Shown: positions 1 to 5,169, numbered from the stretch's first letter. The stretch: 5,241 bases of DNA from an archaeon (GCA_024275415.1 JAJRZD010000097.1:1-5241); one strand, 5' to 3'. Notes: a model not told the origin generated them from the letters alone. Made by a program: numbers and translations.

Positions 1-447
1 AACGACTGTCATGCTTGTGCTGATCTCGTACAGCTCGACCAGCCCGATCGAAACTGTAGTTTTGCTTGTGTCAGCCTGCGGGACAGTGAAACTCTGCAGG
101 CTTGCGTAATATGATCCCGCAGGACTGAAAACATATATGTTCGAACCCATTGCATATGTATCAGACGTTGTGAACGCACCATTCGACGGCACGACAGGTT
201 CCCAATTCGTCAAGTCATCAGACACGTATATTGTGTCGTTCACTTTCGTGTTCGATCCCTTTCCGATCAAGACGCCTGAGATGTATACCGGCTCTCCTGT
301 GCCATCATCATCATCTGGCTCTGGTGGAAACACGCTAAAAGGCGTAGTGAGAATGAAGCTAATCAGCAATAGTACTGCTACAGCTCCTACAGCAATTCCT
401 GCGCCCTGCATTACACTCCCAGAGAAGCTATTCTTTTTCTTACCCAT
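1..447 (-). CDS. Hypothetical membrane-anchored, extracellular beta-rich protein (N-terminal 149 aa only; runs off the left edge)
   Basis: Manual translation from the ATG at 447-445 is open to base 1: MGKKKNSFSGSVMQGAGIAVGAVAVLLISFILTTPFSVFPPEPDDDGTGEPVYISGVLIGKGSNTKVNDTIYVSDDLTNWEPVVPSNGAFTTSDTYAMGSNIYVFSPAGSYYASLQSFTVPQADTSKTTVSIGLVELYEISTSMTVV. It has a basic N-terminus, one hydrophobic segment (~aa 15-31), a Pro/Asp linker, and then a Ser/Thr/Val/Tyr-rich region. A GGAGGAG SD lies at 463-457, 9 nt before the ATG, with an upstream BRE-TATA. The ORF track omits it because it has no stop in the window. Confidence 0.85.
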   Translation of the reverse strand, partial: MGKKKNSFSGSVMQGAGIAVGAVAVLLLISFILTTPFSVFPPEPDDDDGTGEPVYISGVLIGKGSNTKVNDTIYVSDDLTNWEPVVPSNGAFTTSDTYAMGSNIYVFSPAGSYYASLQSFTVPQADTSKTTVSIGLVELYEISTSMTVV

Positions 448-551
448 GTTGTACAACTCCTCCCTCGCAATCCCTCCATCCAGTCGCGTAGGGCGGAGGG
501 AAACCCTACGCTTGGATGTTGGCCACTACGTCCTCCCGACGGTTGACGTAT
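448..551 (-). promoter_or_regulatory. Structured ~100-nt 5' UTR (two hairpins plus possible pseudoknot), candidate cis-regulatory RNA
   Basis: Minus-strand RNA: UACGUC-AACCGUCGGGAG-GACGUA (550-527), then CAUCCA-A-GCGUAGGG-UUUCCCUCCG-CCCUACGC-GAC-UGGAUG (518-477), then GAGGGAUUGCGAGGGAGGAG-UUGUACAAC-AUG. It contains perfect 6-bp, 6-bp and 8-bp stems, and the loop is complementary to downstream GGAGGGA and GAGGGAGG. The start point is inferred from TATA spacing. Confidence 0.6.
457..463 (-). promoter_or_regulatory. Shine-Dalgarno site of the left-edge gene
   Basis: GGAGGAG on the minus strand, 9 nt upstream of the ATG at 447. Confidence 0.7.
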
Positions 552-573
552 ATTCTATTACTATAATCACAAG

Positions 574-587
574 TATTTAAATTTACC
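574..587 (-). promoter_or_regulatory. Archaeal promoter: BRE plus TATA box driving the left-edge gene
   Basis: The minus strand reads GGTAAA (587-582, fits BRE consensus RNWAAW) directly followed by TTTAAATA (581-574). Standard spacing puts the TSS near 551-549, where TA initiator steps occur. Confidence 0.7.
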
Positions 588-606
588 ACTGCCAGTGGTG
601 GTAAAT
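581..606. repeat. Perfect 9-bp inverted repeat with 8-bp spacer (candidate operator)
   Basis: ATTTACCAC (581-589) - TGCCAGTG - GTGGTAAAT (598-606). It contains a nested ACCACT-GCC-AGTGGT (585-599). The repeat is directly visible; the operator role is inferred. Confidence 0.6.
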
Positions 607-4497: not shown

Positions 4498-5169
4498 ATG
4501 ACTGAGAAAGCAAAATACAGTTTCAAATGTCTGGGAAAAGAATGTGAAACTCAAGCATGTCACCTTAGAGAGCAAATAACTGTCACTCTCGGGGACATCT
4601 CGAGATGGACAGCTGGAGGACAATTGCAGCACATCATTGACAAGCTGATAGTATTTCCAGACCGAGAGGAGAACAATCTCCTTGCCATTGCTGTGCTCAA
4701 AAAGCCTCTGAAGGAGAACCCAGAAAAGTCAGCCTGTTTCTTCTATGACGAAGAAACAAAGAGCTGTGGCATTCTCTATTCAAAGCCTATCTCATGCAGG
4801 ACATACCCTCTTGCATATAATGGCAGCAAGTATTTCGTGAGTGACAAGAACTGCCCTGGCGTGGGGAAGGGCGAGGTGACAAAAGAAGCGTTGAAAGCTG
4901 CAAAGGAACTAGCTGAACAGGAACACACTGAGAGACTATTCACAAGACACGTTCTACCTGGTTTCTATTCAGTAATTATGAATACTGTCGCTATCCAGAA
5001 CCAGATGGCTATGAGCAACCTATCCGAAGAGGATAGAGCAAAGCTAGAAGAGCTAATGAAAAAAGCAGCGCCCGAACCGCCTGTACCAGAAACCCCGCAT
5101 ACAGAAACAGGGCAGGAGGGGTCAGAGAACGGTACGAGCCAACCCTCATCGAATGTCAATGATGAATAG
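4498..5169 (+). CDS. YkgJ-family cysteine-cluster protein (putative Zn or Fe-S binding; CxxCxxCC-like family)
   Basis: N-terminal C-x4-C-x4-CH, then C-FF, C-GILYSKPISCRTYP (family pattern C.IY..RP..C..YP) and CPGVGKG. The start is placed at ATG 4498 because GAGGGA (4487-4492) overlaps the ORF-track ATG at 4492 but is properly spaced for 4498. The C-terminal tail is Pro/Glu/Ser-rich and low-complexity. Confidence 0.85.
   Translation: MTEKAKYSFKCLGKECETQACHLREQITVTLGDISRWTAGGQLQHIIDKLIVFPDREENNLLAIAVLKKPLKENPEKSACFFYDEETKSCGILYSKPISCRTYPLAYNGSKYFVSDKNCPGVGKGEVTKEALKAAKELAEQEHTERLFTRHVLPGFYSVIMNTVAIQNQMAMSNLSEEDRAKLEELMKKAAPEPPVPETPHTETGQEGSENGTSQPSSNVNDE

What the first reader, a model, noticed from the sequence alone, without database searches (positions are those of the whole stretch)
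448..518. Candidate translational RNA switch: pseudoknot versus Shine-Dalgarno sequestration in an archaeal leader
Seen in sequence: an 8-bp GC-rich stem (GCGUAGGG 511-504 / CCCUACGC 493-486) closes the loop UUUCCCUCCG (503-494). State A: loop UCCCUCCG pairs with UGGAGGGA (478-471; 8 bp including one G-U). This gives H-type pseudoknot geometry (L1 = 2 nt, L2 = 0, L3 = 7 nt GACUGGA) and leaves the SD free. State B: the lower stem CAUCCA/UGGAUG (518-513 / 482-477) forms and uses two bases needed for State A. The loop UUUCCCUC can then pair with GAGGGAGG (466-459), which covers the SD. The two states are mutually exclusive. Established: translational riboswitches such as preQ1, SAM-II and SAM-V control SD access through H-type pseudoknots, and few riboswitch classes are known in archaea. 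Inference: this may be an undescribed ligand-, protein- or temperature-responsive switch. I recognise no known aptamer consensus in it.
Basis: partly seen in the sequence, partly recalled or inferred. Interest (0 to 1): 0.72.

Follow-up and report, generated by a model that had tools for sequence, protein, structure and literature searches.

The report
Conserved folded mRNA leader in Thorarchaeota
The hairpin is real: it belongs to a conserved, folded, untranslated mRNA leader in front of a rare surface-protein gene of Thorarchaeota (Asgard archaea), and its loop copies the ribosome's mRNA-docking sequence, so it probably tunes translation or mRNA lifetime, but nothing shows that it senses a ligand.

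Summary
Observation confirmed.

The hairpin lies about 30 nt downstream of the predicted transcription start, in a roughly 100-nt 5' UTR. The gene encodes an N-terminally membrane-anchored, tandem beta-sandwich surface protein. I found it in 4 of 400 Asgard genomes.

- **Conservation.** Two orthologous leaders (genome G016; ENA contig L035) keep the same hairpin with almost completely different stem sequences: 7 of 15 pairs changed on both sides, 0 of 500 shuffles as good.
- **Selection.** The loop CCCUCCG, an upstream GGAGGGA box and the block GCGAGGGAGGAGU (with the SD) are 27/27 invariant. Synonymous sites in the adjacent coding region are near saturation (6 of 48 identical).
- **Other features.** A second, 5'-terminal hairpin and the promoter are conserved too. 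A fourth orthologue (G010) lacks the main hairpin and both boxes.
- **No known family.** Rfam gives no hit. A covariance model finds no further copy in 86 family genomes.

I read it as an undescribed cis-acting leader working through SD/anti-SD-like pairing. The hairpin-versus-pseudoknot alternative is energetically and sterically plausible. The loop fits the decoy box (7-8 bp) better than the real SD (5 bp core), and loop-SD pairing in cis looks strained. A ligand or temperature trigger is unsupported. Only three examples exist.

The parts
585..602 (-). Inverted repeat ACCAC-N8-GTGGT directly upstream of BRE; likely a transcription-factor site of this gene's promoter
   Evidence: The arms are kept in window, G016 and (one mismatch) G010 although the divergent neighbour genes differ. 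Function is inferred.
574..587 (-). BRE-like GGTAAA plus TATA box TTTAAATA
   Evidence: Nearly invariant in all four orthologous upstream regions. It is the only A/T-rich box upstream of the AUG.
548..552 (-). Conserved TATAC, 21 nt after the TATA box: predicted transcription start region
   Evidence: TATAC is invariant in four sequences, 18-21 nt after the TATA box. Placing the start here rests on the usual archaeal TATA-to-start spacing (established knowledge). It is not mapped.
527..550 (-). P1: 5'-terminal hairpin of the leader
   Evidence: A hairpin forms at this position in all four leaders with different sequences: -9.1 to -19.1 kcal/mol, z -2.5 to -4.4.
477..518 (-). P2: two-part hairpin. 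Lower stem 518-513/482-477, 1x3 internal loop, upper stem 511-504/493-486, loop 503-494
   Evidence: z = -5.8. 7 of 15 pairs changed on both sides across three sequences, 0/500 shuffles as good. RNAalifold gives the same consensus.
494..500 (-). Invariant loop CCCUCCG, which contains the CCUCC core of the 16S rRNA 3' tail (an anti-SD mimic)
   Evidence: 7/7 invariant while the flanking stem positions are replaced. The 16S 3' end of family member G010 reads AUCACCUCCU.
471..477 (-). Box 1: invariant GGAGGGA, an SD-like sequence 27-30 nt before the AUG. It is the best complement of the loop
   Evidence: 7/7 invariant. Loop:box1 duplex -13.3 to -14.5 kcal/mol. It pairs with the 16S tail as well as the real SD does, -10.4 to -10.7. 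No start codon follows at a usable distance (sequence).
456..468 (-). Box 2: invariant GCGAGGGAGGAGU containing the Shine-Dalgarno sequence (GGAGGAG 463-457)
   Evidence: 13/13 invariant. GGAGG lies at -16 and GGAG at -13 from the AUG. In this genome GGAGG peaks at -15 to -12 and GGAG at -13/-12 upstream of long ORFs.
1..447 (-). Start (AUG 447-445) and first 149 codons of the regulated gene, cut by the contig end. It encodes a membrane-anchored tandem beta-sandwich surface protein
   Evidence: Full-length orthologues are 313-323 aa. The AlphaFold model has pLDDT 83 and shows an N-terminal helix plus beta-sandwiches. The best PDB matches are Gram-positive pilins BcpA and SpaD, and SlaB also matches. 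No Pfam family.

Best explanation
Positions 550-448 (minus strand) are the roughly 100-nt 5' untranslated leader of a rare Thorarchaeial surface-protein gene. The leader is a conserved, undescribed cis-acting RNA element.

**Architecture**
- A hairpin (P1) sits at the very 5' end.
- A long two-part hairpin (P2) follows. Its loop displays CCCUCCG, a copy of the ribosomal anti-SD core.
- An SD-like decoy box (GGAGGGA) lies immediately 3' of P2.
- The real SD lies 4-6 nt further on.

**Most likely mechanism (inferred, not shown)**
The loop, the decoy box, the real SD and the 16S rRNA tail compete for each other. The RNA can either close the lower stem of P2, giving an extended hairpin with a free loop, or open it and pair the loop with the decoy box, giving an H-type pseudoknot. 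This sets how well 30S subunits reach the SD. P1 and P2 probably also shield the 5' end from 5'-to-3' exonucleases.

The structure, the conservation and the selection are shown. The two-state behaviour, its direction (on or off) and any trigger are inferred.
For: - **Structure is conserved.** P2 covaries: 7 of 15 pairs changed on both sides, 90.9% of cells paired, 0/500 shuffles as good, slid controls 25-48%. RNAalifold gives the same helix. z = -5.8, -5.8 and -2.9 in the three leaders. P1 forms at the predicted 5' end in all four leaders with different sequences.
- **Sequence-specific selection.** The loop (7 nt), box 1 (7 nt) and box 2 (13 nt) are invariant. Four-fold synonymous sites of the adjacent CDS are identical in all three at only 6 of 48.
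- **Not coding.** A 2-nt length difference in the spacer between the boxes shifts the reading frame in L035, yet the boxes stay identical. There is no conserved upstream start codon.
- **Link to the ribosome.** The loop contains CCUCC, as does the 16S tail AUCACCUCCU of a family member. About 27% of long ORFs in this genome carry an SD core at -22 to -4, against 8% in a control window, and the leader's GGAG at -13 falls on that motif's peak (GGAGG at -16 lies one base outside its own peak).
- **Complementarity.** Loop:box1 is 7-8 contiguous pairs, -13.3 to -14.5 kcal/mol. Its end pair changes from G-U to G-C in L035.
- **Two states are close in energy.** The extended hairpin is -22.6 to -25.7 kcal/mol. 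The upper stem plus loop:box1 stacks sum to about -36 to -38 before a pseudoknot penalty of about 10, which is my rough estimate.
- **Placement.** The only BRE/TATA lies upstream of the hairpin and is conserved in four sequences.
Against: - There are only three examples, from three genera, and no further copy in 86 family genomes. Loop-box pairing cannot be tested by covariation because both sides never vary.
- The fourth orthologue (G010), and apparently contig L187, do without P2 and the boxes. The element is therefore dispensable for the gene.
- There is no transcript, start-site or probing data, and no RNA run was listed.
- In nested-fold ensembles the SD is not strongly sequestered in the window: P(unpaired) is 0.42.
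- The pseudoknot energies are back-of-envelope.
- The anti-SD of the window's own genome could not be read, because its 16S copy is truncated.
Confidence: 0.5

Rival explanations
1. Constitutive stabiliser and expression leader with no switching. P1 and P2 are 5' protective hairpins for an abundant surface-protein mRNA. Box 1 is a STAB-SD-like site where a 30S subunit parks and blocks 5'-to-3' exonucleases, as in Bacillus thuringiensis cry3A.
For: - P1 sits at the predicted 5' end in all four leaders.
- Distant homologues of the gene also have long, hairpin-containing leaders of unrelated sequence.
- Box 1 pairs with the 16S tail as well as the real SD does (-10.4 to -10.7 against -10.0 kcal/mol), but it lies too far from the AUG to start translation.
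- STAB-SD is described as an SD-like 5' UTR sequence that binds 16S rRNA and blocks RNase J1 (PMC4113751).
- The product looks like a pilin- or S-layer-type surface protein.
Against: - It does not explain why the loop is invariant and exactly complementary to box 1. A protective hairpin needs no particular loop.
- In the extended hairpin, two bases of box 1's SD core are inside the lower stem.
- Archaeal 5'-to-3' exonuclease protection by a parked 30S subunit is untested (my knowledge).
Confidence: 0.2
2. Operator for an RNA-binding protein. This could be a dedicated regulator, a ribosomal protein or the gene's own pathway. The protein would recognise the C-rich loop on its stem, or would stabilise one of the two folds, as S15 does on the E. 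coli rpsO hairpin/pseudoknot leader.
For: An invariant loop on a freely covarying stem is the classic signature of a protein-recognised hairpin. The element travels with the gene and its conserved promoter into different genomic neighbourhoods.
Against: - No candidate protein is encoded next to it consistently. The only conserved neighbour is a downstream membrane-anchored protein of unknown function.
- There is no K-turn: the 3-nt bulge is GAC, CAA or UCA and is not followed by GA.
- There is no bulge-helix-bulge geometry.
- It does not explain the exact complementarity between the loop and box 1.
Confidence: 0.15
3. A true riboswitch or RNA thermometer. A small ligand, a metal ion or temperature shifts the hairpin/pseudoknot balance and thereby SD access.
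For: Very small H-type pseudoknot aptamers exist (preQ1-I, preQ1-II, SAM-II, SAM-V; established knowledge). The geometry here is sterically acceptable for an H-type pseudoknot (my inference): L1 2-3 nt, L2 0, L3 7-8 nt, stems 8 and 7-8 bp. The two states are close in estimated energy.
Against: - No Rfam model scores, even at E up to 10.
- Every conserved unpaired base is accounted for by SD/anti-SD-type complementarity. No additional conserved junction or loop bases would line a pocket.
- The regulated gene is a surface protein of unknown function, not a transporter or a biosynthetic enzyme.
- One orthologue lacks the element.
- Only three copies are known and the motif is unique in its genome, unlike typical riboswitch regulons.
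Confidence: 0.1
4. Not an RNA element at all. The region would be an N-terminal coding extension, or a chance palindrome.
For: The frame upstream of the AUG is open for 19-27 codons in the orthologues (open_frame_aa values). G016 and L035 have in-frame GUG codons upstream.
Against: - Stem changes are compensatory at the RNA level.
- The 2-nt indel between the boxes breaks the frame in L035, yet the nucleotide blocks stay identical.
- The window has no conserved upstream start codon.
- The conserved N-terminus MGKK..FSGS begins at the AUG in all four.
- z = -5.8 against shuffles.
Confidence: 0.03

Closest known systems
SD-sequestering H-type pseudoknot riboswitches (preQ1-II RF01054, SAM-II RF00521, SAM-V RF01826, preQ1-I RF00522)
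   Same: A short leader just upstream of the start codon. A hairpin loop could pair with a downstream purine run to give an H-type pseudoknot next to the SD.
   Different: - No match to any Rfam model.
- In those riboswitches the pseudoknot contains and hides the SD. Here the best-fitting pseudoknot uses a decoy box and leaves the SD free.
- No conserved pocket bases and no metabolite-related gene.
- No ligand is known or suggested.
E. coli rpsO (ribosomal protein S15) translational operator
   Same: A leader that alternates between a hairpin form and a pseudoknot overlapping the ribosome-binding region. The balance decides translation (established knowledge, not tested here).
   Different: The rpsO pseudoknot is fixed by S15 and traps the 30S subunit. 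Here no protein partner is known, the gene is not ribosomal, and the organism is an archaeon. There is no sequence similarity.
STAB-SD 5' mRNA stabiliser of Bacillus thuringiensis cry3A (PMC4113751)
   Same: An SD-like sequence in the 5' UTR that is too far from the start codon to initiate translation, yet is complementary to the 16S 3' end. It belongs to a highly expressed structural-type gene.
   Different: STAB-SD sits near the processed 5' end and has no partner hairpin. Here the SD-like box directly follows a hairpin whose loop is its exact complement. It has been demonstrated only in Gram-positive bacteria.
Archaeal anti-SD regulators acting in trans (Methanosarcina mazei sRNA154 and sRNA41 type), and anti-SD leaders noted earlier in this scan
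   Same: A C-rich anti-SD-like sequence displayed in a hairpin loop and able to mask ribosome-binding sites.
   Different: Here the anti-SD mimic is on the same mRNA, 30-45 nt upstream of its own SD. It is restricted to one gene family.

Membership tests
Any Rfam 15 family (including preQ1-I/II/III, SAM-II, SAM-V, fluoride, ROSE, fourU) | Covariance-model score at or near the family's gathering threshold | tested here: not met
   cmscan of the whole window at E up to 10 returns only a chance SNORD34 hit at 4555-4645. The orthologous leaders L035, L036 and L004 give nothing in the leader at E up to 5.
Riboswitch (generic) | A conserved aptamer core: invariant unpaired bases at junctions or loops beyond what base pairing explains | tested here: not met
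   In the three-sequence alignment the only invariant unpaired blocks are the loop CCCUCCG and the two purine boxes. These are mutually complementary and SD/anti-SD-like. The bulge, the linkers and the spacer before the AUG all vary.
Riboswitch (generic) | Ligand-dependent structural change | not testable with these tools
   Needs in-line probing or SHAPE with candidate ligands.
Riboswitch (generic) | Recurrent association with genes of one metabolic or transport pathway | tested here: not met
   Found only before one family of membrane-anchored beta-sandwich proteins with no Pfam domain. No other copy in the window's own genome or in 86 family genomes.
H-type pseudoknot | Loop of stem 1 pairs with sequence 3' of stem 1, with loop lengths able to span the grooves | tested here: inconclusive
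   Complementarity of 7-8 bp is present in all three, with L1 2-3 nt, L2 0 and L3 7-8 nt. Both partners are invariant, so there is no covariation test. No pseudoknot folding program or probing was available.
Conserved structured cis-regulatory 5' leader | Located between the transcription start and the start codon of the same gene in orthologues | tested here: inconclusive
   Conserved BRE/TATA and a TATAC start motif lie upstream of P1 in four orthologues, and there is no other promoter-like box before the AUG. The start site is predicted, not mapped.
Conserved structured cis-regulatory 5' leader | Helices supported by compensatory changes | tested here: met
   7 of 15 P2 pairs changed on both sides. 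0/500 shuffles are as good and slid controls fall to 25-48% paired. RNAalifold agrees.
STAB-SD-type stabiliser | SD-like sequence complementary to the 16S 3' end, in the 5' UTR, not followed by a start codon | tested here: met
   Box 1 against AUCACCUCCU gives -10.4 to -10.7 kcal/mol. It lies 27-30 nt before the AUG with no usable start codon after it.
STAB-SD-type stabiliser | 30S binding that protects the mRNA from 5'-to-3' decay | not testable with these tools
   Needs toeprinting and half-life measurements.
L7Ae K-turn leader / BHB splicing motif | K-turn: a 3-nt bulge followed by tandem G-A pairs. BHB: two 3-nt bulges separated by 4 bp | tested here: not met
   The bulge is GAC, CAA or UCA and is followed by UGG or CUG. 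There is a single bulge, 8-9 bp from the loop.

The most novel reading that the evidence does not exclude
An Asgard-specific 'ribosome-mimic' switch. A hairpin loop that copies the 16S anti-SD toggles between a decoy SD, forming a pseudoknot with translation on, and the real SD or the free state. The toggle would respond to a cellular signal: a ligand, an ion, temperature, free 30S concentration or a protein. This would be the first riboswitch-like translational control element described in the closest archaeal relatives of eukaryotes.
Probability: 0.12. Interest if true: 0.8.

Novelty: new variant of a known kind. Interest (0 to 1): 0.45.

Why it matters
Very few cis-regulatory RNAs are known in archaea. 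I found no paper describing one in Asgard archaea.

This leader is a compact, testable example: about 100 nt, with two covarying hairpins and three invariant blocks. All of its conserved bases are tied to the SD/anti-SD interaction. It therefore bears on how translation initiation is tuned in a lineage whose ribosome is otherwise eukaryote-like.

Its practical weight is limited. Only three copies are known, it precedes a rare accessory surface-protein gene, and the mechanism is inferred.

Tried and rejected
- **Rfam.** Scans of the window and of three orthologous loci gave nothing in the leader.
- **Covariance model.** Model R1 (P2 to AUG) was searched in 86 genomes of the family. Only the two training loci scored. 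The hits of about 20 bits are SDs inside the 3' ends of upstream coding genes.
- **Own genome.** A scan for hairpins with CCUCC in the loop found no second copy of the motif.
- **Pattern scan (loop...box1...box2).** In metagenome contigs it returned 120 hits, all low-complexity or unrelated, apart from the known L035 and a rumen bacterial leader. In viral contigs it returned one GC-rich coding hit.
- **Protein searches for more orthologues.**
  - The word-indexed search found 3 proteins.
  - The exhaustive profile search found only distant relatives, plus one fragment.
  - The metagenome and viral scans found none.
  - The phylum search found the gene in 4 of 400 genomes.
  - The N-terminal fragment search found only P0005.
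- **Sequencing runs.** No RNA holder was listed, and no run at all was listed.
- **Terminator scan.** No intrinsic-terminator-like site in 300-800.
- **Readings rejected on the sequence.** K-turn, bulge-helix-bulge, an upstream ORF and an N-terminal extension.
- **Own 16S 3' end.** Not assembled. A family member's was used instead.
- **Pseudoknot-aware folding.** pKiss and IPknot were not available. Only stack-sum estimates were made.

Full report
**1. What is in the sequence**

The finding lies on the minus strand of a 5,241-nt window. The window is a complete small contig (C81) of a 3.5-Mb, 127-contig genome. A gene starts at AUG 447-445 and runs off the contig end after 149 codons.

- Upper stem 511-504 / 493-486.
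- Ten-base loop 503-494.
- Lower stem 518-513 / 482-477.
- Loop complementarity to 478-471 and to 466-459.

The 42-nt hairpin folds at -23.1 kcal/mol. That is z = -5.8, and no dinucleotide shuffle out of 200 does as well.

**2. Organism and gene**

Relatives of the encoded protein sit in contigs titled Candidatus Thorarchaeota. Earlier notes of this scan on other pieces of the same genome say the same.

The protein has no Pfam family. Full-length orthologues are 313-323 aa. An AlphaFold model of the G010 orthologue, built on a 12-sequence alignment, has mean pLDDT 83. It shows an N-terminal membrane helix followed by tandem beta-sandwiches. Foldseek's best solved matches are Gram-positive pilins (BcpA, SpaD, FimP), and the S-layer protein SlaB also matches. 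I read it as a surface protein.

The gene is very patchy:
- 3 of 86 genomes of the family, each in a different genus.
- 4 of 400 genomes of the phylum.
- 3 clusters among 5.8 billion protein clusters.

Its genomic neighbours differ in each genome. The gene therefore travels as a cassette with its own upstream region.

**3. The leader is conserved as a structure**

Three other upstream regions could be read: G016 (L003/L036), an ENA contig (L035) and G010 (L004).

G016 and L035 have the same two-part hairpin, but the upper stem is almost entirely rewritten:

| Leader | 5' arm | 3' arm |
|---|---|---|
| Window | GCGUAGGG | CCCUACGC |
| G016 | CCGUGAGG | CCUCGCGG |
| L035 | GGAGCAGG | CCUGCUCC |

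The lower stem has one double change, U-A to G-C. On the three-sequence alignment:
- 90.9% of cells are standard pairs.
- 7 of 15 pairs have changes on both sides.
- 0 of 500 column shuffles reach these values.
- Sliding the 3' partners by 1-3 columns drops pairing to 25-48%.

RNAalifold finds the same consensus helix without being told. The hairpins of G016 and L035 have z = -5.8 and -2.9. G-U pairs in the G016 and L035 stems would be A-C mismatches on the other strand, so the structure belongs to the mRNA-sense strand.

**4. Sequence-specific selection on the unpaired blocks**

While the stems are rewritten, three blocks are identical in all three leaders:
- The loop CCCUCCG (7 nt).
- GGAGGGA directly after the hairpin (box 1, 7 nt).
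- GCGAGGGAGGAGU ending 9 nt before the AUG (box 2, 13 nt, containing the SD).

For comparison, I took four-fold degenerate sites at invariant amino acids in the first 149 codons. They are identical in all three at only 6 of 48 sites. Pairwise identity is 27%, 27% and 46%, close to saturation. Twenty-seven of 27 invariant bases in the leader is therefore strong purifying selection, not recent common descent.

The blocks are not coding. L035 has a 6-nt spacer between the boxes instead of 4 nt. That shifts the frame, yet box 1 and the loop keep their nucleotides. No upstream start codon is conserved. The conserved N-terminus begins at the AUG.

**5. Promoter and extent of the leader**

All four upstream regions share:
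- An inverted repeat ACCAC-N8-GTGGT.
- A BRE-like GGTAAA and a TATA box (TTTAAATA at 581-574).
- The motif TATAC, 18-21 nt after the TATA box.

With the usual archaeal spacing, transcription should start at about 551-548. There is no other A/T-rich box between there and the AUG. This placement is an inference. No start site is mapped, and no sequencing run was listed for this DNA.

Right at the predicted 5' end all four leaders form a hairpin (P1; window 550-527). The sequences differ, with energies of -9.1 to -19.1 kcal/mol and z of -2.5 to -4.4.

**6. The exception**

G010, the most divergent orthologue (54% protein identity), has P1 only, built from CCCUCC/GGGAGG. A short unstructured stretch follows with a GGUGA SD. 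It has no P2 and no boxes.

The 576-nt contig L187 has a window-like ectodomain (90% identity) behind a G010-like N-terminus and leader stub. The P2/box module is therefore optional for this gene.

**7. Link to the ribosome**

The window's own 16S gene is truncated. In family member G010 the 16S 3' end reads AUCACCUCCU.

In the window's genome, SD cores are enriched upstream of long ORFs: 27% at -22 to -4, against 8% in a control window. GGAGG peaks at -15 to -12 and GGAG at -13/-12. The leader's GGAGG starts at -16 and its GGAG at -13, so box 2 is a credible SD.

The loop contains the CCUCC core of the 16S tail. Box 1 pairs with that tail as well as box 2 does (-10.4 to -10.7 against -10.0 kcal/mol). 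However, box 1 lies 27-30 nt before the AUG with no start codon after it.

**8. Which pairings are plausible**

| Pairing | Contiguous pairs | Duplex energy (kcal/mol) | Conservation |
|---|---|---|---|
| Loop : box 1 | 7-8 in all three | -13.3 to -14.5 | End pair G-U in two leaders, G-C in L035 |
| Loop : box 2 | 5-bp core | -10.1 to -13.7 | Flanking pairs not conserved |

Loop:box1 together with the upper stem would be a classical H-type pseudoknot: L1 2-3 nt, L2 0, L3 7-8 nt. I judge these lengths sterically acceptable (inference). It cannot coexist with the covarying lower stem, which uses two of the same bases and would leave no linker.

Rough energies:
- Extended hairpin: -22.6 to -25.7 kcal/mol.
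- Pseudoknot stacks: about -36 to -38, minus a pseudoknot penalty of about 10 kcal/mol (my estimate). This gives roughly -25 to -28.

His 'State B' detail is less so. With the full 14-bp hairpin formed, only about 10 nt connect its base to the SD, which is marginal for reaching the loop. In nested folds of the window the SD is unpaired with probability 0.42.

**9. What it is not**

- No Rfam family matches the window or the orthologous leaders.
- No K-turn: the bulge is GAC, CAA or UCA, with no G-A pairs after it.
- No bulge-helix-bulge.
- No terminator-like site.
- A covariance model of P2-to-AUG finds no other copy in 86 family genomes. Its 20-bit hits are SDs inside coding gene ends.
- The motif is unique in its own genome.
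- Nothing resembles an aptamer. Every conserved unpaired base is explained by SD/anti-SD-type complementarity, and the gene is not metabolic.

**10. Verdict**

I am about 90% confident that this is a real, selected RNA structure. It is best described as an undescribed cis-acting leader that works through competition among an anti-SD mimic, a decoy SD, the real SD and the ribosome. It probably also protects the 5' end.

A constitutive stabiliser of the STAB-SD type (PMC4113751) and a protein operator are live rivals. A ligand or temperature riboswitch is possible but has no positive evidence.

I found no paper describing such an element in Asgard archaea. With three copies and no experiment, interest is moderate.

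Noticed in passing
window 585-602 (minus strand), with the equivalent sites in L036:4852-4869 and L004:1402-1419: An inverted repeat ACCAC-N8-GTGGT abuts the BRE/TATA of the surface-protein gene. It is conserved across orthologues whose divergent neighbours differ, so it is probably a transcription-factor site. Between the TATA box and the start, L035 and G016 also carry an ATACA-N4-TGTAT palindrome.
   Followed up: partly
L164:1255-1310 (16S rRNA 3' end of family member G010); L162 around 1500-1545 (G025): The 16S 3' end of these Thorarchaeota is interrupted. G010 has an extra hairpin-forming stretch of about 29 nt between helix 45 and the AUCACCUCCU tail. In G025 the sequence departs from the 16S model inside helix 45, which looks intron-like.
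   Followed up: no
L111:940-1021 (also L085, L124, L060; rumen metagenome contigs): These bacterial leaders have a similar logic. A short hairpin CCUG-ucaCCCUCCG-CAGG is followed by the hairpin CUCCCUC-uuga-GGAGGGAG and then a GGAGGGAGG SD, in front of a GatZ/KbaZ-like gene. They have no Rfam hit.
   Followed up: partly
L187:1-160: This 576-nt ENA contig carries a copy whose ectodomain is 90% identical to the window's protein. Its N-terminus and leader stub resemble G010's instead, and the AUG is replaced (AGA/ATA with an in-frame TAG just before). It is a recombinant, a pseudogene or an assembly error.
   Followed up: partly
L191:1-6891 (56-kb ENA contig), L188, L189, L190: Distant homologues of the surface protein (25-27% identity) sit in rows of small same-strand ORFs of unknown function, or next to an Rce1-like CPBP protease. 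They too have long hairpin-containing leaders, of unrelated sequence. This may point to a mobile or viral origin of the gene family.
   Followed up: no
L037:4022-4576 and L035:1147-1713: The gene directly downstream of the surface-protein gene is another N-terminally anchored protein without a Pfam family. It is weakly conserved between G010 and L035 (27% over 70 aa, E 7e-7), which suggests a two-gene unit.
   Followed up: partly
window 4555-4645 (minus strand): A weak C/D-box-like match (SNORD34 model, 18.9 bits, E = 7, far below the gathering score) lies between the P-type ATPase gene and the CxxCxxCC-domain gene. It is probably chance.
   Followed up: no
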